From Leucoraja erinacea (lineage: Eukaryota): a stretch of 64,000 bases of DNA. The stretch is from assembly GCF_028641065.1 (NCBI RefSeq), contig NC_073377.1, positions 98,766,001 through 98,830,000 on the forward strand. Direction: 5' to 3'. The number at the start of each line of letters is the position of its first letter. The first letter of the stretch is position 1. Below, in pieces: positions 13,335 to 58,840 of the stretch. The position numbers and the translations under genes were made by a program. The notes under the pieces are model-generated. The model did no database searches. It was not told the origin of the DNA and saw only the letters and a list, made by a program, of their open reading frames with translations.

Positions 13335-13458
13335 TACAGGAATGTGAAATTAGAATTACCATAAAAAGTATAAGATAACTGTCCTACAAGAAATACAAAA
13401 ATAATCAGATGATAACATTCTATTTTCATCAAATTGATAAATAACATGGCTTGTCACC

Positions 13459-26226: not shown

Positions 26227-26873
26227 GTGTGTGTGTTTAATTTGTAGGAAAAATTGTCTTTCAAAATTCTGCAAAGTAAGAAATGAAGGGCTGGTGCGTT
26301 CAGAATAGTATTTTGATACAGAACCGTAGATATGTAGGGTCTATGGAAAGAAACCTTTTAGCCCAACTTGTTCATGCAGACCAAGATATCATTCTGGGCT
26401 AGTCTAATTTGCCTGCAATTTGCCCATATCCGTCCAAATACTTCCAATTTATATATATCTATCTAAATGTCTTGAAAATCATAACTGTATCTGCTTCACA
26501 GCTTCCCTAGGCAGCTCCTCCTAGATATCTGAGAGAAAAAATAGCCCCTGAGGTCGCTCTTAAATCTCTCCCCTCACACATTAAGCCAAAGCCATCTAGT
26601 TTTAGAATCCTCTACCCTGGGGAAAAAGACTGAGCGTACACTTTGTGATTTTGTATAGTTCGTTTAAAGATACAGCGTGGATACGCCCTTCGGCCTATTG
26701 AATTCATGAAAACCATTGATCACTGTTTACACTAGTTCCATGTTTAGAGATAAAGCTCGGAAACAGGCCCACCAAGTCTGCACCGACCAGCAATCCCCGC
26801 ACATTTACACTATCCTACGCACACTAGGGACAATTGGTTACACTAATACCAAGCCAATTAACCTACAAATCTG

Positions 26874-27066
26874 GGAGACACAAAATGCTGGAGTAATTCA
26901 GCGGGACAGGCAGCATCTCTGGAGAGGAGGAATGGGTGACGTTTCGGGTCGAGATCCTTCTTCAGACTGAAACGTCACCCATTCCTTCTCTCCAGAGATG
27001 CTGAGTTACTCCAGCACTTTGTGTCTACCTTTGGTTTAAACCAGCATCTACAGCTCTTTCCAACAC
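26874..27066. mobile_element. PLE-derived fold-back insertion with 14-bp TSD
   Basis: Inverted copies of the PLE 3' terminus; TSD 26860-26873 / 27067-27080 (1 mismatch). Confidence 0.85.
26933..26968 (-). ncRNA. Minimal type I hammerhead ribozyme motif (PLE-associated)
   Basis: Minus strand reads AGU-CUGAAGA-A-GGAU-CUCG-ACCC-GAA-ACGU-C-ACCCA: conserved core, extra A after A9, stem II with one mismatch, palindromic ACGU helix III as described for PLE minimal hammerheads. Confidence 0.72.
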
Positions 27067-27826
27067 AACCTACAAACCTGTACATCTTTGGAGATGGGAG
27101 GAAACCAAAGACCTTGGAGGAAACCCACGCGGTCACGGGGAGAATGTCCAAACTCTGTACCCATTCCTTCTCTGTGGAACCCGTAGTCAGGATTGAACCC
27201 AGGTCTCTAGCGCTGTAAATCAGCAACTCTACCACTGTGCCACCCCATGTTGTCTCACTTTTTCACCCACTCCTGATATATTACGGATAATTTACAGGGC
27301 CCAATTAATCAATAAACTCACATGCCTTTGAGATGTGGGAAAAAGCGGAGCACTCAGAGGAAACCGTCATGGTGCAAATTCCACACAGACAGCACGTGCA
27401 ATAACGTGCAAACTCCACACAGACAGCAGCCAAGATCAGAATAGAACCCGAGTCTCTGGTGCTATGAGGCAGCAGCTCTACCAGCTTCATCACTATCATT
27501 CACAGTCTAATAGGAGCTTTTCTGGTCCATGGAGTCTCTGTAGGCTCATCCCATCTTTCCCCCATTCATTTCTCCGTTGTATATTGATATTAACTCCCCC
27601 GAAGATCCTAAATGCATCCAACACACTTGGGGTACTTTACGATGGCCATTTAACCTCTGACCCACAAGCCTTTATGATGTCGGAGTTCCCTGGGGAAATG
27701 CACACAGCCACAGGGAAACGTTCACACAGGCAGTGCCGGAGGCCAGAATCGAATCTGGGACAGGCAATAACGTCAGCCTCCTATATTCCAAAGAATATAG
27801 TCTCAGCCAATCCCTATACGTTAAGT

Positions 27827-28208
27827 CCTGGTAACATCCCGTTAAATCTTTTCTGCATATTTTCCAACTTAATAACTATTCTTATTGCATGAAGACTAGA
27901 ACTTTTCACAGTACTGCAAATGTGGTCTCACTGATGACCTGTACTGTTATATCATGATATCCCAAATTTTATACTCAATACCCGCCCCAAAGAAGCTTGC
28001 CAAGCACCTCCATCACAAGGCCTGGTAACATCCTGGTTAATTTGTTCTGCATCTTTTCCATCTTAATGACATTGTTCTTATAGCCTGAAGACCAGAACTG
28101 TACACAGTACTCCAAATGTCATCTCAGTAATGACTTGTACAGTTATATCATAATGTCCCAATTTTTATACTCAATACCCTTCCCAATGAAGCATGCCAAG
28201 CACCTCCA
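27827..28208 (-). repeat. Diverged tandem duplication (period ~194 bp) of an old CR1 fragment
   Basis: Units start CCTGGTAACATCC at 27827 and 28021 and both end GCCAAGCACCTCCA. Confidence 0.8.
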
Positions 28209-28848
28209 CTCTGTTGTTAGTTTTCATTTGATACATTACAGTTGTCATTCTGTAATTGGTAGCATGATGTAGGGGAGAAAAACAGATCTGGATTATTAAA
28301 ATGACTAGATAAAACATTAAAATGTACTTTGACAAAAGCAGAACTTTAATAATGACAACTTTATCTCCCTCTCAGCCTCCTCCACTTTCACCTAATTTAA
28401 GCTTCTTGGCATTTAATGAAGTACTAGGGATGGTTTGATAAATGGTGGGACAGGGACCATCATTCGGTTGCTCACGCTCTTTTCACTGGACACTGATGTC
28501 TGATTACGTTCTAGTTAATTCATCCTGAAGAGATTTCCTTCTTTGGATTCACAGATTGTATCTGTGGCCCAGTTTGTCAATTATTATTGATTTGAATTAG
28601 ATTATTTTTGTTGAAACTTTAATTGCACTGTATGTAATTAATGTAATAAATATCCTGTTAAACAAAAATAGAATATGGTGGAATTAAGATAATTAACTGC
28701 CATTTTGATTTTACTACTTTGGGGATGTAAACTTTGCAGTGAATGTGATCATTAGCAAAGACACAGTATATTTTAAAAGGCAACATCTTGGTTGCTTAGG
28801 ATGCATACATTTGTAAATTGATATAAATTTCCTCTGGTCTTTACCCAG

Positions 28849-29082
28849 GTGAGTGATCTTGATGATGAAATGGGCTCTCCTGCTGAAGAATTCAAGGCAT
28901 TTGCTGGTGATACTGGCATGAACAGGAGCCAGTCAGAATATTGTAATGTGGGGGCTAAAACTTTCCTCACTAATCATCCTGCCAGAAAGCTTGTATTTGA
29001 TTTCATGCGTGTCCTTGTGATTGAAAATCTGTGCCTTGCACCTGCAAGTAAACAAACTACTCTTATAGATATGCTTTTAGAG
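28849..29082 (+). CDS. WDFY3: WDFY3 exon L (234 nt)
   Basis: acccag|GTG...TTAGAG|gtaagt; VSDLDDEMGSPAEEFKAFAGDTGMNRSQSEYCNVGAKTFLTNHPARKLVFDFMRVLVIENLCLAPASKQTTLIDMLLE. Confidence 0.95.
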
Positions 29083-29569
29083 GTAAGTGTTGGTGAATCA
29101 AAAATAATAAATGTATAAATAAACCTTTTCCCCATTTGTTTGAGGGAAGAAACTCACTCTTTTCATCATGTTCTGAATTAAAGTGAAAATGATTCAAAAT
29201 TGAATATGTATGTATAGACCTTTGATTACAAACAAGTTTACAAAGCTCCCGGTGTATTATATCCTATTTGAGAGTAAAGAACCTGGCAATATGATTCTGA
29301 AGTCAGAAGTTGGCACTAGTCCCATGCTGTTATTTAAAAGGTTTTTGCAGAGTTGACCAGAACAGCTAACCAGCAAGCACACATTTACACAAATCCTATA
29401 CAAACCAATTTTATTCAGAAAGTTACAGAACTACAGAATGACAACATACAGCTCAATGGGACAAGCTTAGATGGGGCATCATGGTCGTCAAGGATGAGTT
29501 GGGTTGAAGAACCTGTTTCTGTGCTGTATGACTGTGACTCTATGACTCACATATATAATTGGGCAATTT

Positions 29570-31750
29570 GAGGCGTTTTTTTTGAGGGAGTTGACGAAGA
29601 TCACATGAGGATCAGTGGTGGTGGACTTTGTATACATGGACTTTCGTAAAGTATTCAACAAGATCCCTCATATTCGGCTGATCAAGAAGATTAAGGCACA
29701 TGAAATCCTCAGATCTGTTAGATTGGCCAGGATAATTTAGCAATCATAAAAGTTAGGATTGTTGAGGGGAGTTATTCATTGAGATCTGGGACCAGTGTTT
29801 CATATGATCAGTGCCAGGATCTATTTTGTTAGTGATACATATAAGTGATTTGGGCAAATAATTAAGTTCATTACTTGTTCATCAGTCTATGAAAGTAAAC
29901 ATGCAGGTACAGACGGCAGTGAAGAAAGCAAATGGCATGTTGGCCTTTATAACGAGGAATCAAGTATAGGAGCAAAGAGGTACTTCTGCAGTTGTACAGG
30001 GCCCTAGTGAGACCACACCTGGAGTATTGTGTACAGTTTTGGTCCACTAATTTGAGGAAGGACATTCGTGCTATTGAGAGAGTGCAGCGTGGGTTTACAC
30101 GATTAATTCCTGGGATGGCGGGACTTTCATATGCTGAGAGAGTGGAGCGATTGGGTACATTCTATAAGCTGTGGAGTTTAGAAGGATGCGAGAGGATCTT
30201 ATTGAAACATATAAGATTGTTATGGGTTTGGACACGCTAGAGGCAGGAAACGTGTTCACGATGTTGGGGGAGTCCAGAACCAGGGGCCACAGATATGAAT
30301 AATGGGTAAGCCATTTAGAACGGAGACGAGGAAACACTTTTTCTCACAGAGAGTTGCGAATCTGTGGAATTCTCTGCCTCAGAGGGCGGTGGAGGCAGGT
30401 TCTCTGGATGCTTTCAAGAGAGAGCTAGATAGGGCTCTTAAAGATAGCGGAGTCAGGGGATATGGGGGGAAGGCAGGAACGGGGTACTGATAGGGGATGA
30501 TCAGCCAAGTTCACATTGAATAGCGGTGCTGGCTCGAAGGGCCGAATGGCCTACTGCTGCACCTATTGTCTAATGTCTATTGTCTAAAATTGGTTGGCAG
30601 ACAGGAAGCAAAGAGTAGGAGTGAACTGGTCCTTTTCAGAATGGTAGGCAGTGGCGAGTGGAGTGCCACAAGGCTCGGTGTTGGGGCCGCAACTGTTTAC
30701 CATATATATTAATGATTTGGGAGAGGGAATTAGGAGCAGCACTAGCAAGTTTGTGGATGACACAAAGCTGGGCGGCAGTGTGAACTGTGAAGAGGATATT
30801 AGGAGGTTGCAGGGTGACCTGGATAGTTTGTGAGTGGGCAGATGCGTGGCAGATGCAGTATAATATAGATAAATGTGAGGTTATCCACTTTGGCGGCAAA
30901 AACAAGGGGGCAGATTATTATCTCAAGGGGGTTAGGTTAGGTAAGGGGGAGGTGCAGCGAGACCTGGGTGTCCTTGTACACCAGTCACTGAAAGTTGACG
31001 TGCAGGTACTGCAGGCAGTGAAGAAAGCTAATGGAATGTTGGCCTTCATAACAAAAGGATTTCAGTTTCGGAGTAAAGAGGTTCTTCTGCAGTTGTATAG
31101 GGCTCTGGTAAGACCACATCTGGAGTATTGTGTACAGTTTTGTTCTCCTAATTTGAGGAAGGACATCTTTGTGATTGAGGCAGTGCAGTGTAAGTTCACG
31201 AGATTGATCCCTGGGGTGGCGGGACTGTATTATGAGGAAAGATTGAAAAGACTAGGCTTGTATTCACTGGAGTTTAGAAGGATGAGGGGGATTTTTCTTA
31301 TAGAAACATAAAATTATGAAAAGGACTGGACAAGCTAGATGCAGGAAAAATGTTCCCAGTGTTAGGCAAGTCCAGAACCAGGGGACACAGTCTTAGAATA
31401 AAGGGGAGGCTATTTAAGACTGAGGTGAGAAAAAACTTTTTCACCCAGAGAGTTGTGAATTTGTGAAATTCCCTGCCACAGAGGGCAGTGGAGGCCAAAT
31501 CACTGGATGAAATTAATAGAGAGTTATATAGAGCTCTAGGGGCTAGTGGAATCGAGGGATATGGGGAGAAGGCAGGCATGGGTTATTGATTGGGGACGAT
31601 CAGCCATGATCACAATGAATGACGGTGCTGGCTCGAAGGGTTGAATGGCCTCCTGTACCTGTTTTCTATGTTAATTGGTATGTTTGCAGAATGTATGTGC
31701 ATTTATGTAGTTGTGGATAGAGAGGAAGGTTGCCAAATGATTCAGTATGT
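29570..31750 (+). mobile_element. Two head-to-tail CR1 3' copies (~29870-30586 and ~30587-31672) nested in an older CR1
   Basis: Two sets of LYRALVRPHLEYCVQF and 3' UTRs with different tails (CTATTGT vs TTCTATG); older RT remnants on both flanks. Confidence 0.88.
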
Positions 31751-32507
31751 ATAGAAAAACATGCACAAGTAAATCAAATTTCAATACAGCTCGTTAATCT
31801 TAATTTAATAACTAATGTAAATTTGTTTCATATTTCGGTCATATTGGTACATTTCTAGTATTGTGAATTTTGCTCATGAATGATGTGCTTCAGAATCTAG
31901 TTATTTTTTCAACTAATTTCTCCAGTGGATTAGTATTGCTAAATATATTTTGAAGTTCTTTCCAAAGATAAGTTTTAAAGAAAATTCCCTTTAATCACGA
32001 AGATTATAAAAGTAAACCAGTTGTTTATATTTATTTGCTTGCTTCAGCTGCCAACTATTAAGACATATCTATGCAGACTATGATTCAGAAACACCCACAG
32101 AACCTTTGGCTAACACAAATGATAAACAGGAAGAAAATTATGGAACTGCAGGTGAAATAAAACTAAAAATTCAGGAAACCCTTAGAAGGTTAGGTAGCAT
32201 TGGTGATGAAAGAAACAGATTTAAGATTGGCGGTCAATACATTTCATTTGTTTTCATAATTTGCTTGACTGCATTATTGGATCAAAAAATAAATGATTAT
32301 TTTTGTTTCTAACCAACCACAACTTTAGAATTGCATTTTAACTTTCCAATTAATGTGCTATTACCTAGGAATCTATAGTAGGTGCATGTTTTTATTCTTG
32401 GCCATGATTGCAACATGTTGTATTAGAAAATAAAAATTATGTCACACGAATGTGTCTTTTGACAAGATAATAATAGATCATGTTTTTGGTATCATTTTCT
32501 TTTCAAG

Positions 32508-32607
32508 GCATCGCCTGATCGATCAACACGAGCTCAGCAAAAAGAATTTCAAACTTGTATCTTGGACAGTGTAATGGACCACTTATTGGCAGCGGATGTT
32601 TTGTTAG
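32508..32607 (+). CDS. WDFY3: WDFY3 exon M (100 nt)
   Basis: ttcaag|GCA...TTAG|gtaggt; ASPDRSTRAQQKEFQTCILDSVMDHLLAADVLLG. Confidence 0.94.
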
Positions 32608-33479
32608 GTAGGTTCAGTATAGTTATTTTTGCCAGAATCTGTGGAAGAGTAATTTTCTAAATTTTGTGAGTTCCAATTAAAATACAGTGAAAGTCTAAAA
32701 TATGAATTACTGTGAGTTATGTGATACCATTCTTTCATATTATAAATGAAAATGGCAAATTATGTATTTGTTCGCCAGTTACATCTTGGCAAAATGTAGA
32801 TTCCTTTTAATCAATAGTTTCCAACCAATAGATGTTAGTAACAAGATTAAAACCAACATGTTAAATGATTCCAAAGATTCTGTTGCTGAATGTAAAAAAA
32901 GATGTTGAAAGCAAAATAGTGGCCCGTTTAACGTGTTAGCAGCATATTGGTTAATTTATATAGATGTGGGTTTTTTATTTTATAGTATTGAGTGATTTCT
33001 CTCATATCTGAGCAAAACAGCATGTTTAGGCATCTAGCTGAAGAACTATTAACACACAGCATAGGAAGGACCATTTTCAGCAAACAGTTCTTGAGCAATT
33101 TTCTGAAGTTTGCAATCAATTTAAACTCTGGGAAGAAATACAGATGGGAGTTTTTTATACATAATTTTTAATTTGGAGCAAGCTGATTTTCATTATATGG
33201 TGAGTTTTGACAATCAGACTCTGATTTTGACGTTAATGGCTCCTTAGTACTGCAAAATTATTTAAATTACAAATTTAGAACATCTCTCAAAGTAATTATT
33301 CTACTGTTACTGGAAATTCTTTTTTCCATCATCATTATAATTCTTATCAAACACTGTTCTGAAATTTTCAATTAGCATAAAGTGGTGCCTATTTGATTAA
33401 AAAATGAACAAAGGAAAATATCCAGCAGTGTTAATGTTCTTATTATGGAGAATTTATTCCAGAATGTCATGATATAGCA

Positions 33480-33945
33480 TCAAGAGTGCTTAATTGTCAT
33501 ATGTACCCAAACAGAACAATGAAATTCTTACTTGCAGCAAAGTCTGTAAAAACAGAACTCAATAGATAACAATAGAACAAAAATATATATGATTTTTTTA
33601 AACAAATATTAGTGTAAACAAAAGCCAGAAGTCCCTAGTGCAATCAAGGCAGTTTGTAGTTCAAAGTTTAATTGGTGTTTATTGTATTAAATAGCATCAT
33701 GGTTGCTTTGTTGGGAAGAAGTTGTTCCTGATCCCGGAGGTCACCGTTTTCAAACTCCTGTAACAACTTCCTGATAGCAGGAGTGAAATGAGAGTGTGAA
33801 CAGGATGGTGTGGGTCTTTGATAATGCTGGCTGCCTTTTTGAGGCATTGCCTCCAATTGATCTTTTTGATGGGGGGAAGGTCAGAACCTGTGATGTGGGT
33901 GTCCCCCACTTTTTGTTATCTCCTGGGCATTCTAGTTGTGATCAT
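33480..33945 (-). mobile_element. Rex1/Babar-type LINE 3' fragment
   Basis: CLKKAASIIKDPHHPVHTLISLLLSGSCYRSLKT...NNFFP. Confidence 0.85.
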
Positions 33946-34194
33946 ATCACAATGTAGTTTTACAGTGCGGCGATTCTATAAAATCTGGTAATTACGAGCA
34001 AAATTCGCTCAATAAATTGTTATAAACAAATTATTTGACTTTTTTTATGAACAATTGATGCAACTATGTTAAAATCTGCAAGAAATAATGCTAGATAAAG
34101 CATATGTTATTACTACTAGCTGTATAATTGTTTTTTTAATATAAGTTAATTCTACAAATTAACATTACTATTGGTATTTTCATAACTATTTCAG

Positions 34195-34355
34195 GTGAAG
34201 ATTCAACGTTGCCTATTGCTAGTGGAGGAAGTTACAGTATATTAGTGAACAATGTATTTTACTTAACACAAAGACTTGTGGATAAGCTTTGGCAAGGCAT
34301 CTTCAGCAAAGAATCAAAACTTGTTGTTGACTTCATTATTCAGTTGATAGGACAA
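34195..34355 (+). CDS. WDFY3: WDFY3 exon N (161 nt)
   Basis: tttcag|GT...GGACAA|gtaagt; EDSTLPIASGGSYSILVNNVFYLTQRLVDKLWQGIFSKESKLVVDFIIQLIGQ. Confidence 0.94.
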
Positions 34356-36696
34356 GTAAGTGGATATTACCCATTAACCTCAAATTAATTTTATTTTTTA
34401 GTACATTAGGATTAAGCTAATTAACTTTAAATGTGGAAATTAAAAGGAAAACTAACAAATGTTGACAATGCACAAGTGATACTGTTATTTGATAACAGCT
34501 CATAATTTGCTTGCAAAATACTGTAATGAAGATTCATGCCATTAATCAGTCTGTACATGCAGAAAATCTTATATTTTTGTATTAATATAGAACCACACAT
34601 TTTCCCACAAGTAATTCACCAACAATAGCAAGTGGGCAAGGAGCATATTGAAGATCTCCCCAAGCAAGAGTGCCTTTGATGCAAGTGTCTAAGCAGATTT
34701 TCAGATGTTTTTAAACCATTTAGACCATTAAATCATTAAATTTCATTGGTTAAGGAAATGGATCGTTGGTCCTAACATTACCTAGTTTCCACATGTTCTG
34801 TTAAACCAAAATATTACCATCTCATACTTCAAGCAGTTTGCAGTGCAAAAATAGATAAAGCAGATTAGTGAAGAACAAAATGCATGAAGCCTATTGCATG
34901 GTGCCCATAATCTGAGGTAGGGTTAATAGTTTTGTAAAGATGTTTCAAAGCAACTTTACATTTTGAGTTCCAAAGAAAGGATTATACTTGAACTCTTAAC
35001 ATGAGAACAAAATATTGTCATATTTGTTCCCAAAGTATTAAAAAGTCCAAATGCTTGAAATATGTAATTAAAACAAACACTGGAAATATTCGGCTGGTCA
35101 GACTTGTGGAGAGAGAGAGAGTTAATATTTCGGGTTGATAACTTTCCATTAGAACTGTTAACAGTCAACTCTGCTTCTCTCTCCATGAGTACTGAATATT
35201 CCATTTAATTTTAATTTTTGCCTTTGTATTTGGCATTTTGTTCACCATTTCCATGAATTTTTAATTCAACATCATTTTGCAAACAAATTGTGCAATATTC
35301 TCTCAGAAGCTGATATCATTGTTGTACATTCCCATCATTTGTTATTTTCCTTTCTCAGTTCTACATTTAAAGTTAATCATCTTAATTTATTTCACTGCTG
35401 TCATTATTCTAACTATTACTGAAATGTTCCTACTGTTTAAATGACTGAGGCAACAATCAAAATGAAATCTTGTTTCTTCTCCTTAAATGGGAAATTAGAA
35501 CATCTTGAACTTGAGGTGGTACAGCATTTTAAAGGAGGTGCTTTATAAATGCTAAAAATAAGATTTAATTTCACTTCAAACTATTTGCATTATCGTATTT
35601 GATGGTAGTCTGATGTGACAAGTAACATTTATGCACAAAACTGCTCGCCAATTATACCTCCAACTACAGAGAGCTGCCCTGCACTTAATATTTACCAAGG
35701 TTATCAGCCAAATCTTCCAGTATCAACATCAGACCAGTCACAATTATTCAGGAATTCAAGTGGACTAGCCACTTAAAGATTTGTGACAAGAGCAATGGCT
35801 GGCTATCCTCTGGTAAGTGAATAATCTCAACACCTCAAGCGAGTGAGAACTAGGCTGATTACAGAAAATTCAGAGGGGAAGCAAAACCGGAAATATGGTG
35901 ACAAAATGAGATCAGGAGAAAAAACTGGCAGCAAACTTTACGGTTATCCTACAAACATCTAAAATAGGAAAGTGGAGAAATGGAACCATATAGAGACCGA
36001 AGGGGAAGTTTACTAATGGTAGCAGAGAGCACAGATGAAGCACCAAATAAGTACTTTACTTTAATCTTCTCAACTCTGAATGTTACTGCTGGGACAAAAG
36101 AAAATGGAATTGAGATCCGAGATTAACATTGGTAATGTTCCCAGCTGAAATTTCACTGGTAAACCATCTCATCCAGATGAGAACCATTCTAGGTAGCAGA
36201 GAGGTATAAGGGAGGAAATTGTAGCGACGTTGGCCATATCTTCCAAATATCAAAAAACAAACTGCTTCAGGCTGAAGGAAGGTCCCAACCCAAAACCTGC
36301 AGATGCTGCCTGACTCATTGAGATTCTCCAGCAGTTTTTTTTGTTCATGATTCCAGCATCTGCAATTTGTGGTGTCTCCATCTTCCAAACATCCACGGGT
36401 CAGAGATAGTGCCCAAAAACTGAAAAATTGTGCAAAAAGAGGCATGAAAGATAAAAATGCAATAACTGCAGATGAGTCAATTTAACCCTGGTGATGGAGA
36501 AAGTTCTAAAAAGAATAACCTGGGGCTGGGGCTGAATTACTTGTCACTTTGATAGGTGTGTATTGTCCGGGAAATCTAGCATAGATTTATTAAAGATAAA
36601 TTGTGTCTAACTTGTTGAGCATTTTTTGATGGAAAGGTCAATGAGGGAAATGCAGGTGACACACAGTTAAAGGTGAATGGTTTAAGAACTAAATAA

Positions 36697-39126: not shown

Positions 39127-39261
39127 GTATGTCTTTAGAATTTAATTTTGATGGCATACTCGCAATATGGCAACTCAAAGATTTAATATTGCTCCAACAT
39201 TAGTTCAAGTATTTCGCAAAAAAAAACTTTAAGCTTTGATCAGTGATGAGAAATTAATCGG

Positions 39262-41652: not shown

Positions 41653-41688
<36 letters not shown>

Positions 41689-46249: not shown

Positions 46250-46503
46250 AGGGGTGGCATGATGGAGCAGCAGTAAAGTACAGTGCCAGAGACCCGGGTT
46301 CGATCATGACTTCTGTATGGAGTTTATCCGTTCTCTTCATGACCTGCGGGTTTTATCCAAAGATGTACAGGTTTGTAGGTTAATTGGCTTCGGTAAAATT
46401 GTAAATTGTCCCTAGTGTGTGTAGGATAGTGTGAATGTGTGGGGATCGCTTGTTGGCGCGGACTCGGTGGGCCGAAGGACCTGTATCTTTAAATTAAACT
46501 AAA
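46250..46503 (+). mobile_element. V-SINE (internally deleted)
   Basis: GACCCGGGTTCGATC B-box, CCAAAGATGTACAGGTTTGTAGG core, AAACTAAA tail. Confidence 0.82.
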
Positions 46504-46519
46504 GTTAATTTTAACGGTA

Positions 46520-46712
46520 GGCACAAATTGCTAGCTTAACTCAGCGGGTGAGGCAGCATCTCTGGAGAAAAGGAATGGGCGACATTTCGAGTCGAGACCC
46601 TAAAAAGTCAGCCATTCCTTTTCTCCAGAGTTGCTGCCTCAACCGCTGAGTTACGCCAGCATTTTGTGTCTACCTTCGATTTAAACTAGCATCTGCGGTT
46701 CTTTCTTACACA
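46520..46712. mobile_element. PLE-derived fold-back insertion with perfect 15-bp TSD
   Basis: TTAATTTTAACGGTA at 46505-46519 and 46713-46727; ~75-bp inverted arms centred on 46594-46595. Confidence 0.88.
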
Positions 46713-48039
46713 TTAATTTTAACGGTAATGTGACACATACTTGAATTGGCTTAGATACAAAATCATTTGAGGTTTGATGTGGCCTCTTTCACTATTATTA
46801 TGTTAAATATTGGGTCTGAGCATAGAATCATTTAGTTTAGTTGTTGTGGAAGTAAATTTAAGAAATGTGGGTCCTGCTTTATTGGAATTCCTTTAACATA
46901 GCGAAGCACCCAGAAGTATTTTGTGGGAACATATTCTAACAAGAATAGAACTAAGCCAAAATTTGGGGATGGAACAATTAATTGCTTGGTCTGGACACTT
47001 CAGGGTGAGTAATTTGGAACTATTAAGGAAGAAAATTCCTGTGGGTTTAAGTCACATTTGGATGGGTCAAAATGAGTAGATTTATTAGGCTAAGAAAATT
47101 ACTGTGCTTGAGTTTCACAGAAGTATAAACACATTTGCGGAACTCTTATGGGTCAGAAAATGAGTTGGGAAGATTTACCTCTCTTAGAAAGTGCCTACTA
47201 AAGGGGTTGAAGCAGTAAATTACTGTGATTCTCTGACAGGCCCAGAGACCACAGATGGATTTGACTATATGTAATTAAAAGCTCAATTAAAGAGCTGCAG
47301 ATCTGGTTTTACCACACATTTCAAGGAGATTATATTACTGACAATGAGGCAGTGATTGATAGGAAAAAAACAAAACTAAAACCAAATTTAAAAAAAGATA
47401 TCAAAAATCAGAAATAAACCCATAAAATACTAGAAACACTCAGCAATTTGGGCAGTATCTATAGAAAGGGAAACCAAGTATACAGACAATAGACAATAGG
47501 TGCAGGAGTAGGTTATTCGGCCCTTTGAGCAGTACTAGTTGTTTTGAGTATAGTTTCAAGTAGTACGTTGTTTCTCTTTACATTCGAAATTGGAAAAAAA
47601 AAGGCAACAAGTTTGTTTCATGAAAGAGTGGGGAAATGATGAAGAGGGCAAAGTGCTTTTTTCTGATGATGTGAAACCAGGGTTGCCTTAGTGATATGTT
47701 GTTGATGAAGTCATTTGGTTGGTAGGTTAATGAGGTCTGTTGGACGGAAAAAATTCAAAAGAAATATGGAAAAGCTGTGAAATGCAGGTCAGGATTATAC
47801 GAAATGCTCGCAGAACAGTAGTACTCTTCACTGGAACTGAATTACACGACGGACAAATAGCCTACAACAGTTTGTTCCAGCAATCTGATACCATATGGAT
47901 TAAAATCATTTCTTGTGTACTGGTTTTACTTCTAATTTTTACGAACTAAAATCAAGTATGTTCTCAACAATGTCTGAAGATGAATATGTTGTGCAACTTG
48001 GAGCACTAAGGAAAATGAGTCAGGGTCAGACTTGTCTGA

Positions 48040-48925: not shown

Positions 48926-49047
48926 CTCGAAGCAAACGTATTCTAACTGATTTTGTATTAAAGGCACTGTATTTCTGTAAACTTCAAATTTTAAATTGCA
49001 TTTAAAACTATTTCTAATGTATTATATCGAATTATATCTAATTTTAG

Positions 49048-49230
49048 GTCGACAGCTACTTCTCAAAGCTGTGAATAGGGTTTGGACTGAACTGATTGTC
49101 AGCAAAAAACAAGCTTTGGAGGAGATTTTCAAAGTAACACTACCTACAAATGAGCGTGGACTGGTGGACTTGTCCACTGCTCGTCCACTCATTGAAGATG
49201 CAGCTTTAAAGTGCTGGCAGAATCATATGG
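49048..49230 (+). CDS. WDFY3: WDFY3 exon Q (183 nt)
   Basis: ttttag|GT...ATGG|gtgaga; RQLLLKAVNRVWTELIVSKKQALEEIFKVTLPTNERGLVDLSTARPLIEDAALKCWQNHM. Confidence 0.95.
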
Positions 49231-49819
49231 GTGAGATGTAAATTAATGTTGACGTTAAATAATCACATATGGATAACTGACTTGTGCAACTTTATTAAGT
49301 CACAGCAAAAATTGTTGGGAATAGCACTAAAAGGCATCAATAATTTTGACATCTGTTTCTGCTGTTTCGATTAGGCTGGAAGTTCAAAGAGATGGGTTGG
49401 GGTGCAATTAGCAAGGTGAAAGAAAGATACTGTTAATTAAAATATATATTTATGTTGAGTAACGTAGAACTTAACTTAAAAGTTTATTAGTTGGTAAAGA
49501 TTAATTTATTTAAATTTTTAATTTCATTTCTTAAAAAATGTTGAATTTGATGCCACCAGTGAAATAAATTACATGGGATTTTTATTATTGAGAAATTGAC
49601 CAGATATATTTGTAAGATATTCTAAAACCTTGCCACTGGCAGCTATCTGTAGAACAAAGTAGCTTTATGTCAATATTATGAAGTTTTATGCAAAAAACGG
49701 TTAATTATATTGAGGGTTGTCTAATATTCATCTTGGAAATGTGCTAAAATGTTCTGCCTTATGTACATTGACCCATTCTCTTCCAAGATTAAATGTATCG
49801 CTTCAATAAGAACACCATA

Positions 49820-50725
49820 AGGGCCTGCCCCACTAACGCGTCTTTTCAGTGAATGTCTTTGACCTTCAAGCTCGAGGGCACTCGCCTGAAAAACCTCGAG
49901 CTGCATCGACCGTCAGCAATCAAACCGCGAGCTGGATCGACCACACAGACAGACAGACAGACAGCAGGGGCCAGGGAAAGCGGGGGAGCACTGTCTGAAA
50001 TTCACACCCGGGATGATCAAGACGGCTGGCACAGTAACAATAAGTCCTTTAGAGAGCGCAGAGAGGTGGGGAGAAGTAGTGGAGATACTTTTAAGAAGCC
50101 AGCCAACTTTTAATAAAGTTTAGTGGGCATTTAACATTACTGGTTGGTTTACTTACCTTTTTTTTCTCAACGAGCTCTACCTTCGATTTCCTTTCCTTGT
50201 GGAGGGTGTATAGTGTTAAAAGGCCGAAACACCCAGTGATGCAAGGGTACACTACTGATGATGTGTCCTGTGCCCAACTGTCCTGAAGGTTACCCAGGCC
50301 AAGATATACGTATCCCCCCGCCCCCCACCAATGTTGAGCGTCTACCACTTTCAACAATCAACGAATGTCGTGAAATGCTCCCCACCTATTGGCACAAGGG
50401 AGTTCTTAACATCTTGTCCTGTGTATTTGATTTTGATTACCTACGATAGCATTACGACCTACTATGACCTACCTCGACCAAACCTACGAGTAAAAAATAT
50501 CTATTTTTTTCCATGGCGACCTTTTTTTAACTTGTGGGCATTTTTCAGCATGTTGAAAAAAACGCCGCAACCTAGCTGAGGCCTCGAGTACGCGGGGACT
50601 ACTCTCGAGCATGAAGGAGAATTACAACAACCTCCTAGGACCTTGTGTCGACCATGCTGCGAGTATGAGTCGAGGGCAAACTCTTCTAAACTCGCGAATT
50701 GGATTGTTGCGGAGGGACAGGCCCT
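49820..50725. mobile_element. PIF/Harbinger-type MITE carrying a ~240-bp foreign insert (~50190-50430)
   Basis: TIR AGGGCCTG(C/T)CCC...GGGACAGGCCCT; TWA-like flanks. Confidence 0.78.
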
Positions 50726-51467
50726 TTACTGTTGAGTTTTAACAATGCTATTGCATCAAATGTAACTTGTGCACCTTTAAATCCTTACATAATGCATTTT
50801 ACTTTATTGAGAAAGAATCAAGGTTAACTTGCTGCTTTCAGGAGGTAACATTGTCACTGTTGATCTCTGGTGAAATCTAGCAATAGAACACTTTACTGCG
50901 GTTATGTCAAGCACAACCAGATTTTTATTTGTTATGTTGACTATCCGCCTTTAAGCATATATTTCATCCTGTGTGGATATCAGTAAGAACTGACTGGAAG
51001 TATCTCTTTATTAGTTGAGGAGACTTAACAAAAATGCCCAGTTAATTCTTATGAAATTGTGAGATTTTTGATCCATTGTGTCATGTTTTTAAAATTCAGC
51101 TTTTTACTATTACATTGTCACAATGTCATGAAGAAATTATAGGTCACCACTCCTGCTTCCTATTGCTGTTCATGGAATGTAAACCATTCCCCATCATGCT
51201 TTTATGCCAAATTCATGTGCCTGCATTTGAAATTGCAGTAGACTGGTTTCGATTTTAATCAGCTTTAAAAGTAATTCTCCTTATATCATAAAATGTGATG
51301 TAAAATTTATTTTCCTCGATTTCTTCCTTCATATCTTGAAAGTAATAAATTTGGTTGTAAAGTTATCCCACAGGAGATGCAGCTACCTAGGTGGTAGTTC
51401 TTTATCATGTGGGATTCCAGATGATCATGATTAAATTCCGTGTTAATCATGGTACATAACATGAGCT

Positions 51468-52340
51468 CGGTGGGGGCGCTGCAATGGCGGCAGTCCTGTC
51501 AGCAGCGCGTTAGTTTTTTCAACTTTTTTAATTTTTTTAGTATGTTTTAAAGTATGTTTTTAATGTTTCTTTGTGGGTTTTGTGTGGGGGTGGTGTGAGG
51601 GGGGTTAGGGGGAAACCGTTTTGGCCATCTCCTCCATGGAGAGGCGACTTTTTCCAGGTCGCCTCCCCCGTGGCCTAACAGCAAGGATCGGCGCGGTCTT
51701 TCCCGGAGACGCGCCCGGGGCTTCAGCGGCGGGCGCAGCGTGGACTCTCGGTGTGGAGCGGGCGAGCCCTCGCTGGGGCTCGCTGGAGGGGAGCGCTCCG
51801 TTTCGCTGGCCCGGGGCAGCCGGCAGCCTGAAGCCGCGGTCTGCACAGCTCCAGCTGGCGCGGCGTCTACAGCCCGGGATCCCACATGTGGGACCCGGGG
51901 GAAGAAGAAGCCATCACCGCCCCGTGGCCATCTTCTACCGCGGGCGCGGTGGCGACTTACCATCACCCATGGAGAGGAGCTTCGATCGCCAGCCCTGCGG
52001 TCAGCGGCGCTTCTGGCTGCGGCGCCGCGGGAACTTTAAACTTTAAATCTTCGACCGCCGGCCTGCAGCCTACACCAACTTAAAGCCACGGTCTCCGGTG
52101 GGGAAGAGCCGACTCTGGACTTACCTGGACTTGTACCTTGTCCTTTTACCATCTGGACGCCCGCAGCAACGAAAATGGAGGAGGACTGGCCAAATTGTGT
52201 GCCTTCCACCACAGTGATGAATGCTGTGGTGGATGTTTATGTTAAATTTTTATTGTGTTTTTGTGTGTGTTCTTTATAATTGTACCGCTGCTGACATATT
52301 CATTTCACTTGCACTTATGTGCAATGTGACAAATAAACCG
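51468..52340 (+). mobile_element. GC/CpG-rich non-autonomous retroelement with Rex1/L2-like 3' tail
   Basis: No coding homology seen; ends GCAATGTGACAAATAAA followed by (TATTG)n, resembling the LINE tails in this window. Confidence 0.6.
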
Positions 52341-52644
52341 TATTATATTGTATTGTATTAAACTCAAGGGCAGTTTGCAGCAAGTGTAAACTGGATTGCC
52401 ATCAGGAGGACAACAACACCTCTAATTCTCTATTTTTGGTTGACTGCTCTCATGTCCTGACCCTAACCTCAATTAATCTTCATGGTCCACGAATCATGGA
52501 GGAAGACTTCTTGGCTGTTTTCTTTTATTATTGATTTAATTCCTAATGTAATACATTTCTGTATGTCAGAAGTAACTATTCTACTAAGCAGATAACGAAA
52601 CCTACATGTGACATTTGCAGGTGATTTGTTAAACATGACTACTA

Positions 52645-53055
52645 TTAACCATATAACCATATAACAATTACAGCACGGAAACAGGCCATCACGACCCTTC
52701 TAGTCCGTGCCGAGCACGTATTCTCCCCTAGTCCCATATACCTGCGCTCAGACCATAACCCTCCATTCCTTTCCCGTCCATATAACTATCCAATTTATTT
52801 TTAAATGATAAAAACGAACCTGCCTCCACCACCTTCACTGGAAGCTCATTCCACACAGCCACCACTTTCTGAGTAAAGATGTTCCCCCTCATGTTATCCC
52901 TAAACTTCAGTCCCTTAATTCTCAAGTCATGTCCCCTTGTTCGAATCTTCCCTACTCTCAGTGGGAAAAGCTTATCCACGTCAACTCTGTCTATCCCTCT
53001 CATCATTTTAAAGACCTCTATCAAGTCCCCCCTTAACCTTCTGCGCTCCAAAGAA
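52645..53055 (-). mobile_element. CR1 3' end, same subfamily as 22826-23760
   Basis: (CCATATAA)n tail; YSLERRRLRGDLIEVFKMMRG. Confidence 0.9.
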
Positions 53056-53399
53056 TAAATTGTAATATTCTTGTTTAAATAAAACATGTAACTATATCGC
53101 ATACCCTTTATACAAGATATGGGTATTGCTTGGCAGACAAGTGTTTAATTGACCTCTTCTGATTGCAGCCAACTGCTGCTTTGAACCTTGGTTGGCAATA
53201 TTGTCGAGGATGATGAAGGAATGGTAATATCTTCCCAGGTTGGACTCGTCTATTTCTAGAGCTCTGTCCTCACCACTTCTCTTGGATAGAGCTAGGGTGA
53301 AGTTCCCTTGGTCATCAGCTCCCCACCACCCACTTCCTGCACATTCGACAGATCATCTTTTGCGACGAGATTCCACTATCAAACGCGTAGTCCCCTCTT

Positions 53400-54700
53400 A
53401 AGAACAGTACAGCAAAAGAACAGGGCATTCAGCCCACACTGCCATGATGCCAAGTTAAACAAATCTACTCTGCTTGCATTTGATGCATATCCCTCCATTC
53501 CCTGTATATCCATGTGCTTATCTTAAAACCTCTTTTAACACCTTAAACTTACCTTGAGTCCACTGCCACACCTGGCAGCACACTCCAAGCACGCACCACT
53601 CAATATAAACAAAATTGTCCTGCACATCCACTTTAAACTTTTCTCCTCTGGGCTTAAGCTATGCCCTTTCGTTTTTGACATTTCCACCCTGAAAAAAAGG
53701 TTCTGACTGTCCACGCTATCTATGCCTGGCATTATTATATATTCTTCTATCAGCATTTGATGCTCCATCAAAAACAATCCAAGTTTGTACAACTTCTCCT
53801 TAGAGCTGGAGACAAAAGACAGCACATGCTGGAATCTTGAGCAAAATACAGAGTGCTGGAGGAACTCGGTGGTTCAGGCAGCATCTGAGGCCACTATTTT
53901 GTTATGATTAAGGGTTCCAACCTGAAACATCGCCTACACCCATTCCCTCCCCAGATGTTGTCTGACCACTGTGGTTTTTCCAGCACACAGCTCTTCTTTT
54001 AGCTATGACCCTCTAATCCGGGCAGCATTCTGGTGAACCTCTTCGGCACCTGCTCTACTGCTTTAATGTATTTTCTGTAACGGATGGTCAAAACAGCACA
54101 CAATGCTCCAAATGCAGCTTCATAAAAGTCCTATCAACTCAATGCCCTGCCCAATGAAGACAAGCATACCATGCAAGATCCCTGTGTGCTTCAAAACTGT
54201 TAAGGGACTTGCCATTAACTTATACTGTCACCTTATATTCAAACCCCCAATGTGCACCACCTCACACTTGCTTCGATTAAACTCCATCCGCCCTTTCTCT
54301 CCCCCCCCCCCCCTATCTATCTGATCTATATCCCATTCTGTCCTTTGGCAACCCTCCTCACTATCAGCTAATCCACTAATTTTGGTGTCATCTGCAAAGT
54401 TACGAACCAACACATCTACATTTATTTCCAAGTCGCCTATCTATATAAATAACAAAAACAGAGGTATCAGCGGGGGACCCTGCCGATCACTGCTGGTCAC
54501 AGACCCCATTCCAGAATAACATCATTCCACTACTACTACCCTCTGCCTTCTTATAGGTAAACCAGGTATGGTTCCCAACTAACAATATCTCTAGATGCCA
54601 TGCATCTTAATCTTCTGGATTATTTTACCATGGATTTTATCAAATGCCTTACCAAAATCCTTGTAGACAACATCCAGTGCCATTAATAACCTTCATCACC
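53400..54700 (-). mobile_element. Old CR1 with nested PLE terminal fold-back (~53805-54000)
   Basis: NFADDTKISG, MEFNRSKCEVVH on minus strand. Confidence 0.8.
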
Positions 54701-54714
54701 CCCTCAAAAAAGTT

Positions 54715-55500
54715 GCTCCCTGCTCTTTGGCACTTTCCCATGCAACTGCAAGAGATGCAACAATGGTCTTTTCAACTCTTCCAGGGACCCAAGTCTTTCG
54801 GTAAAGCAGTGATTCTCTTGTACGTCTTCCAATCTATTGTACTGCATTCGATGTTCACTGTGTGGTCTCCTATTTAAATGGAAAAACCGTGCAGATTAGC
54901 TGATCACTGCAGAAAGCCTGCACCCAGTCCTCAGGAGTGTCCCCTCTCCGTTTGAATTCACCATCCCATCCCCACTCTGACTTTGCTGTCTGTGGTCCCC
55001 TGCATTGTTACAATGAAGACCAATGTAAGCACAAGAAACAACAGCTCATTTTCCATCTGGGCACATAGGGTCTTTTGTGTATTTAATTCTCTAACTTCAG
55101 ATAACTTGCTCTTTCCGTTTTATCAGGACTGGCTATTTGTGTTTGCCATTCTTCCTCCAGCACCTATTTTTTTTTATTCCTTTTTTTTTCAATTGTATAT
55201 TCTTGCCTGCACAACACATCCCAGTTGTCCTAACCATGCCCTGGCTTCAGAACATTAACTGTCCATTCAATGACCGCATCATTTCAATCTATTACAGACA
55301 ATTCCCTAGTTCCATCCATTGCCCTCCTCTGCCTGCTCTGCCACTAGACTAATTTGCTTTCCCTCTTTCTTAATTCTGATATAGGTCTTTGACCTGAAAT
55401 GTTGACAATTTCTCTTTTCACTGATGATTTCCTCTCCCCCCAGCATTTTCTGTGTTTATTTCAGATTTTCAGCTTCTGCAATATTTGTTTTGATTTTCTG
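54715..55500 (+). mobile_element. Old PLE 3' fragment (GIY-YIG remnant plus decayed hammerhead)
   Basis: TTTCCCATGCAACTGCAAGAGATGCAAC (FPCNCKRCN) motif; CTGATATAGGTCTTTGACCTGAAATGTT at ~55375. Confidence 0.7.
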
Positions 55501-56053
55501 GACCCAGGCCAGGATGATTTATGACTGAAGGAACTTGCAGTGCTGATATTTACATGGTGGTGGTGCCTGTCTTTCTAGCTGACAAGTTGATGTTTTTAGG
55601 ATGCAGTTGAAGTAACCTTGTTGGGCAACCGCAGTGCATGTTGTTATTGCTGGGCATTGCAGTCACACTGTCTCAGTAGAGGAGGTGAATGTTAAGTGTT
55701 ACGGTTGCTGTGACAGTCAAGCAGAAACATTATCCTTGATAATGTTGAGTAGCTTGATTGCTGTTAGAAAAAACACTCACTCTGGCAAGTGAAGAGATTT
55801 CAATCACATTCCATGGATTTTATCGAATGCTTAGATCCATTGCAGTTCAAACTCCTAGATTGTGTAACATCTCAATGATTTAATGTTTCTAGTTCCTTTA
55901 CTAGACAACTGAACTCCCTGAATGAAATTATCATATTACATATAGTTTTGTACTATGGGCTTTGCCGATTTGGACCTTCTAAAATAATTTTATTCTGGAG
56001 TATTTGCAACCAATGGAAAGAGATAGAAATTCTTACTCAGGATAGAAATTCTT

Positions 56054-58840
56054 AAACCCCTGTCTCACAGTGTGAGTTGACCCACGAATGATCCCGAGTT
56101 TGAAACAAATTAAACTTGTGGTAATCACGTACAATTAATGTAGCAAGAACGTCAGAACTCATGGACGCAACTTAGCGACTCGTGGCGCTAACGGCAGGTA
56201 CGCAGGAAACTTGTTAACTCTTGAAAAACTTTAAACATGTTTAAAGATTTCCACGAGTCAAATTTAATCTTGAAGTTAAAATTTGAAACATTTAAACTCG
56301 TTGTAACAATGTAGTGGCCCGTGAGTTTACCGTAGTGAGTCTTGAGTCTACCGTGGGTTTACACTGAGTGCCAGAAGTGAAATGTTAAAGATTAGTCATC
56401 TCCGGAGAACTTGGATAGGTGACGTTTCGGGTCGGGACCCTTCTTCAAACTTTAGACCCTTCTTTCACCCGAAACGTCACCTGTCCATGTTCCCCACAGA
56501 TACTGCCTGACACGTTGAGTTACTCCAGCACTTTGTATTTTTTCGTAAACCAGCTTCTGTAGTTCCTTGTGTTCCAAAATGTAATGCTTTATAAATGTCC
56601 AGAGATGCTGCCTGTCCCGCGGAGTTACTCCAGCACTTTGCCTCTGTCTCCCTGGAGACCTCGTTTCCCACACAATGTGACATCTACCGTGCATACATTG
56701 CCAGCTGTTGTTTTGGCAGCAGCAACATAATCTCCTGGTTAGTACACTCAGTGTTGCTGAGGCCTAGTTTATGTAGAGACAAGAAACTGCAGATGCTGGA
56801 ATCATGATCATAAAACACACACAAAGTGTTGGAGGAACTCACACAGCGCTGGAGTAACTCAGCGGAACAGGCAGCATCAGCGGAGGGAATGGACAGATGT
56901 TTATTCGGCTCGAAAAGAAGGAACTCAATCCGAAACGTTACCTATCCATTCCCTCCACAGATGCTGCCTGACTCGCTGGCTTACTTCGAACACTTCATGA
57001 GTCATAGGAGCAGAATTTTATCCATTCGGCCCATCGAGTTGCTCCAACACTTTGTGTTTCGCTCAACATGCCAGCACCTGTGGTCCCCCATGTCTCCATT
57101 TGACAGCTGGAAGAACTCAACGGGTCATGGAGTCTGAAGAAGGACCCTGTCCCGAAACCTCGCCTGTCTGTTTCCTTCCACCGATTTCATGTAGTCACTT
57201 TTCGATAAAACCCCACCGCCCCAGTTATTCCAAGTCCATTTAATTCCCCGTGTCTCCATTTCATTCATTAAGTTGCCGGTACTGTCACATCGTTCGTTTT
57301 CGGTCAATACAACAGAACAGTCTGAAGAAGGGCGACGATAGACAGAAAAAGCTGTAGTAACTCAGCGGGACAGGCAGCATCTCTGCAGAGAAGGAATGGG
57401 TGATGTTTCGGGTCGAGACTCTTCGACAGACTGGTAAAGGAAATGAAAGATATAGATGATGTATTGTAGAGAGATAAAGAAAAATGAATGCAAAAAAGTT
57501 ACGATGATAAAGGAAACAGACCTTTGTTCGCTGTTCGTTGGGTGAAAACGAGCAGCTGGTGCAACTTGGGATAGACAGAGAGGGAATGCCGGGGTTACTT
57601 GAAATGAGAGAAATCAATATTGATACCTGGGCTGTTAAGCTGCCCAAGCAAAATATGAAATGCTGTTCCTCCAATTTGCATTTAGCCTCACTCTGACTGG
57701 AGGAGACATCAGACAGAAAGGTCAGTGTGGGAATGGGAAGTGTTTGGCAACCGGGAGATCAGGTAGGTCCAGGTAGCAACCGGGAGAGTCACTATCCGAA
57801 ACGTCACCCATTCCTTCTCTCCAGAGATGCTATCCGATCTCTGAGTTACTCCAGCTTTTGGTGTCTATTGAGGTAAACCAGCATCTGCAGTTCCTTCCTA
57901 CACAACAGAACAGTATGAGGAGCGGTTAATGTTAGAGGCTGCTCACTAACCTCACTATGTTTACATCGTCCTCTCTAGCAATGAATAAATATAATTTGGT
58001 TACCGTATTATTGACTGCAACCGCCCATTTAAAATGACTGCTCTTTAATTCTCAACCACTGGATATTTGCCTGGAAACATATTGCATGTTTTCGTTCAGT
58101 GAGATAATTCAATTTTAATAGACTGAGGTGATAAGTCCGGTGCCACTTCACAACAAACTAAACGACCTATAATAGAGCATTTAGGATCGATAATAAAATT
58201 CTCAAGACTATTTAACATATATAATTCCAGCACCACTTCACACTGAGCTGTCCGTGATGCCTCTGCCATGATCCGTTGTTCGGATAAAACACTGTTTGAA
58301 ATAATTTGAAGTTTTGAAATTAATCCTCACAGCCTAATGTACATTTTGGGCTAAGATTTGATCCGTGCACAAAGCGCAATGTAAACGGAATGGAATCTCT
58401 ATTAACATTCTGAGACTCTCTACATAATGGAAGTGATCACATTCGGCCCTTCGAGCCAGCATTGCCATTAAATATGATCATAGCTGATCATCCAAAATCA
58501 GTACCCAGTTTCTGCTTTCTCCCCATATCCCTTGATTCCGTAACCCTAAGAAATTTAAACATTGGAGGCTTTTTATAGTGAAAAAAAACCTGCATGGCAT
58601 CATTTTTACCATGTGATGATTTTTCCACACGTCGGTAGTCGTTGTTGGCTCAAGAGTAACTCGGGAGAGGAACTTGGAACATCGCAGAAATTAGAAGTAA
58701 ATGGCAAACTTAGCCATACCCGTGGGAACTTGGTTAAACTCTTGAACATAAACTTGGAATCTCGTACACAACCACTAGTCTGATTTTTTTCTTTCACTCG
58801 GGGTCACTCGTGGGTCAACTCGCACCGTGAGACGGGCTTT
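56054..58840. mobile_element. Harbinger-like MITE ends enclosing a cluster of nested PLE termini and a CR1 tail
   Basis: AAACCCCTGTCTCACAGTGTGAGTTGACCCACGA at left matches the reverse complement of TCGTGGGTCAACTCGCACCGTGAGACGGGCTTT at right. Confidence 0.65.
57322..57901. mobile_element. PLE insertion with inverted structure and 13-bp TSD
   Basis: ACAACAGAACAGT at 57309-57321 and 57902-57914; minus-strand EEQHFIFCLGSL plus a + strand 3' terminus. Confidence 0.82.

What the first reader, a model, noticed from the sequence alone, without database searches (positions are those of the whole stretch)
26860..57914. Penelope fold-back mini-insertions hinge at the hammerhead ribozyme
Seen: three independent insertions (26874-27066, 46520-46712, 57322-57901) have 13-15 bp target duplications and consist of inverted copies of the PLE 3' terminus. 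In these and in the piece at ~56395-56575, the forward copy starts at or just before the hammerhead GAAACGTC; the non-inverted PLE end at ~10225 starts at the same point. In the 46.5-kb copy the symmetry axis (46594-46595) falls in the loop of hammerhead stem II (TTTCGAGTC-GA-GACCCTAAA). Known: PLEs carry minimal hammerheads and often insert with an inverted terminus. Inference: the ribozyme stem II hairpin, or the self-cleaved end, acts as the fold-back/template-switch point. This would produce a stereotyped ~190-bp hairpin class that may itself be mobilised as a non-autonomous family.
Basis: partly seen in the sequence, partly recalled or inferred. Interest (0 to 1): 0.7.

Follow-up and report, generated by a model that had tools for sequence, protein, structure and literature searches.

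The report
Twin-primed Penelope hairpins, some transposon-borne
These small DNA hairpins are very common stub insertions of a known Penelope-type jumping gene, likely made by joining two separately primed DNA copies of its RNA rather than by one copy folding back at the ribozyme, and two of the four pieces flagged are passengers inside a different, multi-copy DNA transposon.

Summary
The hairpins, target duplications and the stem II axis at 46594-46595 are real, but the reading is only partly right. In 1.2 Mb sampled blind, 85 close head-to-head pairs occur. 5' ends pile up at the hammerhead's front edge (17x background), less in stem II (2.7x), not significantly at the cut site (1.5x). 47 of 61 resolved pairs have the tail on one arm only. 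In 45 of 60 stem II-axis hairpins fetched genome-wide that have one tail, the loop came from the tail-less arm 25 times and the tailed arm 20 times; one folding cDNA cannot give the first class. Best reading: both target nicks prime cDNAs (inferred) that are joined head to head, often at self-complementary stretches, stem II among them. Hairpins have unique junctions and flanks and form no clade. The 56.4-kb and 57.3-kb pieces are not independent insertions here: both lie in one 2.8-kb PIF/Harbinger-type element (56055-58838) with dozens of copies. Inverted ends, one-sided tails and junction palindromes are published; this scan reached twin priming before on other DNA, but had no note on this carrier.

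The parts
26860..26873 (.). left TSD of hairpin 1 (right copy 27067-27080); target is a SINE-like repeat
26874..26969 (-). tail-less inverted arm, model about 97 down to 1 (reaches the ribozyme's front edge)
26969..27066 (+). tailed forward arm from model 25 (GAAAC) to 135, one base shared with the other arm
46505..46519 (.). left TSD of hairpin 2 (right copy 46713-46727), 15 bp exact
46516..46600 (-). tail-less inverted arm, model 102 down to 13; supplies the loop bases at 46594-46595
46596..46712 (+). tailed forward arm from model 20-25 to 135; 5-nt overlap through the stem II palindrome
56055..58838 (.). non-autonomous PIF/Harbinger-type DNA transposon, about 70-nt TIRs, TTA duplication (56052-56054, 58839-58841), carrying nine PLE terminus pieces
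56397..56572 (.). cargo hairpin: inverted arm cut at the carrier's capture breakpoint (56398), forward tailed arm from about model 21; no TSD found
57309..57321 (.). left TSD of the long inverted insertion (right copy 57902-57914); inherited in the carrier copies
57318..57332 (+). 15-nt sense stub of model 1-15 between the TSD and the inverted arm; its first four bases overlap the TSD end
57333..57783 (-). tail-less inverted arm running through the ribozyme (core mutated in all 7 aligned carrier copies), 3' UTR and into the GIY-YIG C-terminus
57784..57901 (+). tailed forward arm from about model 11-22 to 135
10225..10308 (+). solo tail-less terminus starting about model 16; no TSD found

Best explanation
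The hairpins are stub insertions of Neptune-type Penelope-like retrotransposons, likely built anew at each landing when both staggered target nicks prime a cDNA on the element's RNA and the two cDNAs are joined head to head; the 56.4-kb and 57.3-kb pieces were later multiplied as cargo of a PIF/Harbinger-type DNA transposon. Steps: (1) staggered cut, mostly 14-15 bp (shown by TSDs). (2) One nick primes at model about 102, the other at about 135, giving a tail on one arm only (ends shown; priming inferred from Frangieh 2024, a different PLE clade). (3) The RNA is uncut at the ribozyme (inferred from no peak at the cut site). Many cDNAs stop at the ribozyme's front edge (shown), likely because the transcript starts there (inferred, about 50%; stall at helix I about 35%; splice acceptor about 15%). 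(4) The two same-sense cDNA 3' ends anneal wherever the terminus is self-complementary (front-edge palindrome, stem II, a 15-nt palindrome, ACGT) or are end-joined with little or no homology or with filler (junction classes shown; annealing inferred). Stem II serves as one DNA annealing site, not as a catalytic or RNA hinge.
For: Tail on exactly one arm in 47 of 61 resolved pairs (85 examined), P=1e-5 against independent choice. Tailed arm shorter at the 5' end in 30, longer in 6, equal in 11 of 47: in the 30 neither arm can be a copy of the other; the 26.9-kb and 57.3-kb inserts are such cases. Loop origin 25 tail-less: 20 tailed among 45 one-tail stem II-axis hairpins of 60 fetched. 5'-end rate versus background: front edge 16.7x (16.1x in a young family of known UTR, 76 arms), stem II 2.7x, GAAAC 1.9x, cut site 1.5x n.s.. 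Microhomology of 4 or more in 20 of 41 filler-free junctions versus 25% simulated. The same one-tail inverted layout occurs in kilobase-long copies. The hexamer CCAGCA lies about 23-26 nt before each of the two 3' ends. PMC11167929 (parts 1-2 of 4 read): a PLE protein nicks and extends both strands, starts at two internal sites bounding the tail, is a predicted dimer, and does not need ribozyme cleavage. Carrier: TIRs, TWA duplications, 79% identity over 300 nt including the TIR to a DDE_Tnp_4 (PF13359) locus.
Against: 14 of 61 resolved pairs are tail/tail or tail-less/tail-less and 24 of 85 are unresolved. The 20 tailed-loop hairpins and the 6 tail-longer pairs are each compatible with fold-back. 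Arm-to-arm gene conversion after insertion could scramble loop origin; some hairpins show variants mirrored in both arms. 16 of 57 junctions carry filler that the model does not explain. Max-extension alignment inflates stem II counts in overlapping arms; in solos stem II is only 1.6x (n.s.). The front-edge peak in old families can be inflated by UTRs missing from my library of 29. RNA reads gave no start site. No biochemistry on this element.
Confidence: 0.65

Rival explanations
1. A single target-primed cDNA folds back on stem II (or another palindrome) and copies itself.
For: Symmetric palindrome joints 12 of 41 versus 10% simulated; 219 exact stem II-axis copies; arms of one insertion are closer than random arms in 56 of 70; mirrored variants.
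Against: The copy arm cannot hold sequence missing from the first strand, yet it would have to in 30 of 47 pairs and 25 of 45 stem II-axis hairpins, including the 46.5-kb copy itself.
Confidence: 0.1
2. Self-priming on an antisense transcript makes an extrachromosomal hairpin that the endonuclease trims at 102 and 135 before integration (Arkhipova 2013, PMC3846280, passages read).
For: Explains palindromic junctions and a bias for the tailed arm being shorter; terminus RNA is present in both orientations (probably read-through).
Against: Predicts a fixed loop origin, but it is 25:20; 29 of 41 filler-free junctions are not symmetric palindromes; Frangieh 2024 equates the tail ends with RT start sites.
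Confidence: 0.1
3. The self-cleaved RNA end is the switch point.
For: Core boxes are conserved in 147 motif-selected complete cores; 6 of 57 pairs have an arm end at model 31-35.
Against: No significant excess at 31-35 in any class (ratios 1.4-2.1, P 0.07-0.28); most arms run through the cut site.
Confidence: 0.04
4. The 190-bp hairpin is a non-autonomous family retrotransposed as a unit.
For: Stereotyped outer ends and length; tailed and tail-less arms cluster slightly (26 changes versus 31.5 shuffled, 7 of 200 shuffles as low); two junctions recur at two blind loci each.
Against: The 30 best matches have many different junctions and different flanks; hairpin arms are no clade (65 changes versus 70 shuffled, 25 of 200; short 74-nt alignment); several subfamilies, with both arms matching in family in 76 of 85 pairs; one recurring junction also shares its flank, so it was copied with flanking DNA.
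Confidence: 0.05

Closest known systems
Inverted-pLTR insertion units of EN+ Penelope-like elements (Craig 2021 PMC8557442, passages; Arkhipova 2013 PMC3846280, passages)
   Same: Inverted 5'-truncated copy next to the direct copy, 30-40 bp tail on one end, TSDs, palindromes and a 15-bp overlap at the inverted junction.
   Different: Here most units are only 100-200 bp, about 70 per Mb; junctions map onto the hammerhead; loop origin argues for two cDNAs rather than the published self-priming.
[quoted passage not shown]
   Same: CUGAAGA / GAAAC core, unpaired base before stem II, palindromic stem III, short helix I; opposite-strand pairs 100-700 bp apart were noted there.
   Different: That paper proposes cleavage and circles; insertions here come from RNA uncut at the site. 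Cleavage not tested.
PAc of the green anole in vitro (Frangieh 2024, PMC11167929, parts 1-2 of 4 read)
   Same: Two RT start sites bounding the tail, both strands nicked and extended, cleavage dispensable.
   Different: Poseidon clade, not Neptune; the parts read do not treat inversion junctions.
L1 twin priming (Ostertag and Kazazian 2001; recalled, not read)
   Same: Second nick primes a second cDNA, giving a head-to-head inversion with microhomology.
   Different: L1 arms do not overlap and the second primer site varies; here arms overlap almost fully and both start sites are fixed.
Non-LTR retrozymes (bioRxiv 10.64898/2026.07.22.740005, part 1 of 5 and passages read)
   Same: PLE-derived, hammerhead-bearing, non-coding.
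   Different: Retrozymes are direct tandem repeats; these are inverted pairs or solos.
Non-autonomous PIF/Harbinger elements with captured DNA (Pack-type; family traits recalled)
   Same: TIRs, 3-bp TWA duplication, captured interior, ends shared with a DDE_Tnp_4 locus.
   Different: The cargo is dead PLE stubs, and sister subfamilies carry other PLE hairpins.

Membership tests
EN+ Penelope-like element, Neptune type | RT followed by C-terminal GIY-YIG endonuclease upstream of the terminus | tested here: met
   PF01541 over cut-off; RT motifs read in broken frames. RT not scored by a profile.
EN+ Penelope-like element, Neptune type | Zn-finger-like CxxC linker between RT and EN | tested here: met
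   CxxxxCxxC linker in translations; criterion from PMC8557442 passage
EN+ Penelope-like element, Neptune type | RT phylogeny within Neptune | not tested
   no tree of RT built
EN+ Penelope-like element, Neptune type | pLTR with inverted copy and one-sided 30-40 bp tail | tested here: met
   3' end modes at 102 and 135. No intact 5' pLTR plus ORF was recovered among 30 loci.
Minimal type I hammerhead | core boxes, stem II, palindromic stem III | tested here: met
   alignment of 147 motif-selected cores; no Rfam hammerhead hit at E<=1 in the window
Minimal type I hammerhead | self-cleavage | not testable with these tools
   needs an assay; no excess of ends at the cut site
Non-autonomous hairpin retroelement family | one shared junction and monophyly with fresh TSDs | tested here: not met
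Non-LTR retrozyme | direct tandem units each with a hammerhead | tested here: not met
   window copies are inverted pairs or solos
PIF/Harbinger non-autonomous element | terminal inverted repeats | tested here: met
   56053-56122 versus 58771-58841
PIF/Harbinger non-autonomous element | 3-bp TWA target duplication | tested here: met
   identical TWA on both sides in the window and in 4 of 9 other two-ended copies; TWA-like but unequal or decayed in 5
PIF/Harbinger non-autonomous element | ends shared with a transposase-coding element | tested here: met
   1 of 30 PF13359 loci shares 300 nt at 79% including the TIR; its other end and Myb gene were not examined

The most novel reading that the evidence does not exclude
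Penelope-like elements integrate as a dimer that primes two cDNAs on one RNA at two marked sites; both run towards a transcription start placed at the ribozyme's first bases and anneal through the ribozyme's own stems, so the hammerhead sequence acts as a cDNA joining device independent of cleavage, and Harbinger elements then spread such hairpins as cargo.
Probability: 0.3. Interest if true: 0.65.

Novelty: new member of a known kind. Interest (0 to 1): 0.4.

Why it matters
How PLEs make their inverted ends and one-sided tails is described as undefined in the papers read. The loop-origin count separates two-cDNA annealing from the published self-priming idea with genome data alone and gives clear predictions for the existing in vitro system. 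About 150,000 such hairpins (71 per Mb extrapolated from interiors of 12 large contigs) are a large natural data set. The carrier shows that apparent TSD-flanked 'independent' insertions can be inherited cargo, which matters for counting events.

Tried and rejected
Rfam scan found no hammerhead family, only sub-threshold miRNA hairpin matches. MFE folds of three termini were no better than shuffles. No RNA holder listed by index (the stretch sent lacked the terminus by my coordinate slip). Reads from three RNA runs and one contig set laid on a young terminus: both orientations about equal in two bulk runs, no start or end pile-up, no GT..AG joint among the 15 of 203 joints shown, loose ends at the front edge: no verdict on transcription start versus splice acceptor. 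Extra 5' G from a cap: G at model 1 in 18-20% of unextended arms versus 0% in UTR-extended arms, but near flank background: inconclusive. No full-length element with a 5' pLTR among 30 RT loci. No clean empty site for the 57.3-kb insert among 29 carrier loci. One search was the reverse complement and added nothing. One search had a mis-written motif (3 hits), redone. Host exon 10619-10777: no Pfam or PDB match. Paper searches for PLE twin priming, strong-stop, initiator and Harbinger capture listed nothing on point by title or abstract start; subscription papers, Repbase reports and all supplements (e.g. Figs S1-S2 of PMC11167929, alignments of PMC4209133) were not seen and may bear on novelty.
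Full report
Setting. The window is G000:C1:98766001-98830000 of a 2.19-Gb genome. The repeat content looks like a cartilaginous fish (recalled, no call). Model numbering of the terminus, from 147 motif-selected cores: 1-4 CAGT, 5-11 CTGAAGA box, 13-24 stem II, 25-28 GAAA, predicted cut after 32, tail about 103-135.

Observation. The three TSDs are real (14, 15 and 13 bp) and the 46.5-kb axis lies in the stem II loop. The terminus belongs to a PLE: GIY-YIG PF01541 over cut-off, RT motifs and a CxxC linker, hence Neptune type by the criterion in PMC8557442 (passages). Forward arms start at model 25, 20-25, about 21, about 11-22 and about 16, so not at one point. Two more hairpins in the window (53812-53986, 56777-56999) join elsewhere.

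Carrier. A search with the long inverted arm returned copies with the same flanks. 56055-58838 is one element with about 70-nt TIRs and a TTA duplication. Its unique interior has 73 candidates, 40 scored; 21 of the 29 non-self loci fetched run through both junctions of the 57.3-kb insert, the rest are internally deleted or cut. A lesion in the CTGAAGA box is shared by all 7 aligned copies, so the cargo ribozyme was dead before amplification. The TIR end has 2655 candidates; 16 sister loci diverge exactly at 56398 and 12 of them carry other PLE termini, mostly hairpins. One of 30 DDE_Tnp_4 loci shares 300 nt at 79% including the TIR. The scan held no note on this stretch.

Blind sample. Twelve 100-kb blocks at round coordinates hold 493 arms, none in the reversed control. 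117 reciprocal head-to-head pairs lie within 700 bp, 85 within 45 bp; tail-to-tail pairs number 39, 5 of them within 40 bp. TSDs are found in 30 of 65 pairs with both outer ends, 0.2 expected, modal length 14-15.

Where ends fall. Ends per nucleotide traversed, against background (model 36-50 plus UTR -150 to -10): front edge 16.7x, stem II 2.7x, GAAAC 1.9x, cut site 1.5x (P=0.07). The front-edge peak holds in a young family with known UTR (16.1x, 76 arms) and in close pairs (38 of 57 have an arm ending at 1-6). Stem II is 3.5x in inverted arms and 1.6x (n.s.) in solos. Of 57 junctions with both ends mapped and a spacer of at most 12 (28 of the 85 left out): 21 blunt, 16 with filler, 8 asymmetric microhomology, 6 symmetric at the front-edge palindrome, 4 at a 15-nt palindrome centred on model 22, 1 at ACGT, 1 at stem II. 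Symmetric joints are 12 of 41 versus 10% simulated (P=5e-4). Exact-match counts genome-wide are 219 for a stem II axis and 224 for a front-edge axis; the first motif has four CpGs and so undercounts more.

Mechanism. 47 of 61 resolved pairs have one tailed and one tail-less arm (P=1e-5). The tailed arm is shorter at its 5' end in 30, longer in 6, equal in 11. In the 30, each arm has sequence the other lacks, which fold-back of one cDNA cannot give. For the stem II class itself I fetched 60 of the first 100 listed of 219 loci: 45 have one tail, and the loop comes from the tail-less arm in 25 and the tailed arm in 20; 15 are truncated or have none or two tails; TSDs in 23 of 51 versus 0.8 expected; only 3 pairs of loci share a flank, apparently a common target repeat. 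An even split is what two identical cDNA ends annealed over stem II (10 of 12 paired) with a repaired 2-nt mismatch would give; later arm-to-arm conversion could blur it. This fits PMC11167929 (parts 1-2 read): both strands nicked and extended, two start sites bounding the tail, cleavage not needed. CCAGCA occurs at model 79 and 109, ahead of each 3' end. It differs from the self-priming reading of junction palindromes in PMC3846280 (passages).

Front edge. TCAGT is 87-93% conserved across UTR families while positions further up vary; it matches the initiator consensus (recalled) and also a pyrimidine tract plus CAG acceptor, and in Drosophila virilis an intron ends at helix I (PMC4209133; intron and promoter passages in PMC2377424). 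Sequence upstream of unextended solos shows no shared exon. RNA reads did not decide it. A 15-nt sense stub of model 1-15 at 57318-57332, primed where the TSD ends in CAGT, and one like it in the blind set (1 of 232 tail-less ends) suggest a cDNA that ended at model 1 served briefly as template; two cases only.

Family or not. The 30 best matches to the 46.5-kb hairpin have varied junctions and flanks. Hairpin arms are interspersed with solos and ORF-linked arms (65 changes versus 70 shuffled; 216 arms, 74 nt, weak tree). Both arms agree in family in 76 of 85 pairs. Two junctions recur at two blind loci each, one with a shared flank.

Prior art and verdict. Inverted copies, one-sided tails, junction palindromes and opposite-strand hammerhead pairs are published. 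Four searches listed no paper on PLE twin priming or this capture; supplements were not read. Unchecked AI notes of this scan reached twin priming and run-off on other DNA; I had written that reading down before looking. Verdict: a real, abundant, known kind of insertion; hinge-at-stem-II is a true minority class made probably by annealing, not folding; interest 0.4.

Noticed in passing
window 56055-58838; L224-L252: Harbinger-type family whose subfamilies share the left 345 bp and carry different captured interiors, several with PLE hairpins.
   Followed up: partly
window 57318-57332; block C12 near L148: 15-nt sense stub of the ribozyme's first bases between target and tail-less arm, in two apparently unrelated insertions.
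   Followed up: partly
loci: Exact stem II-axis motifs (four CpGs) cluster near chromosome ends and on smaller contigs, whereas front-edge-axis motifs (no CpG) look evenly spread; perhaps CpG retention or biased conversion. Judged by eye.
   Followed up: no
L256, L267, L274, L283, L298: Rare variants mirrored in both arms of one hairpin: same template or arm-to-arm conversion.
   Followed up: no
blind blocks: About 15 apparent solos (3.7 expected by chance) have a very short inverted arm, several being the tail alone.
   Followed up: partly
model 4-14 versus 40-52: These stretches are complementary, an alternative hairpin that competes with the ribozyme fold and gives several asymmetric joints.
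   Followed up: no
window 10619-10780: Host exon-like frame flanked by AG and GT; resembles LYST from memory, no database match obtained.
   Followed up: partly
window 13229-13335 and 6102-6612: Other perfect or long inverted repeats, probably MITEs; the first gives sub-threshold miRNA-model hits.
   Followed up: no
window 13459-13493: Tail-only PLE piece (model 101-135), 31 of 31 identical to 57874-57904.
   Followed up: no
L313-L315 and others: Many DDE_Tnp_4 loci with open frames of about 450 aa, so Harbinger elements may be recently active.
   Followed up: no
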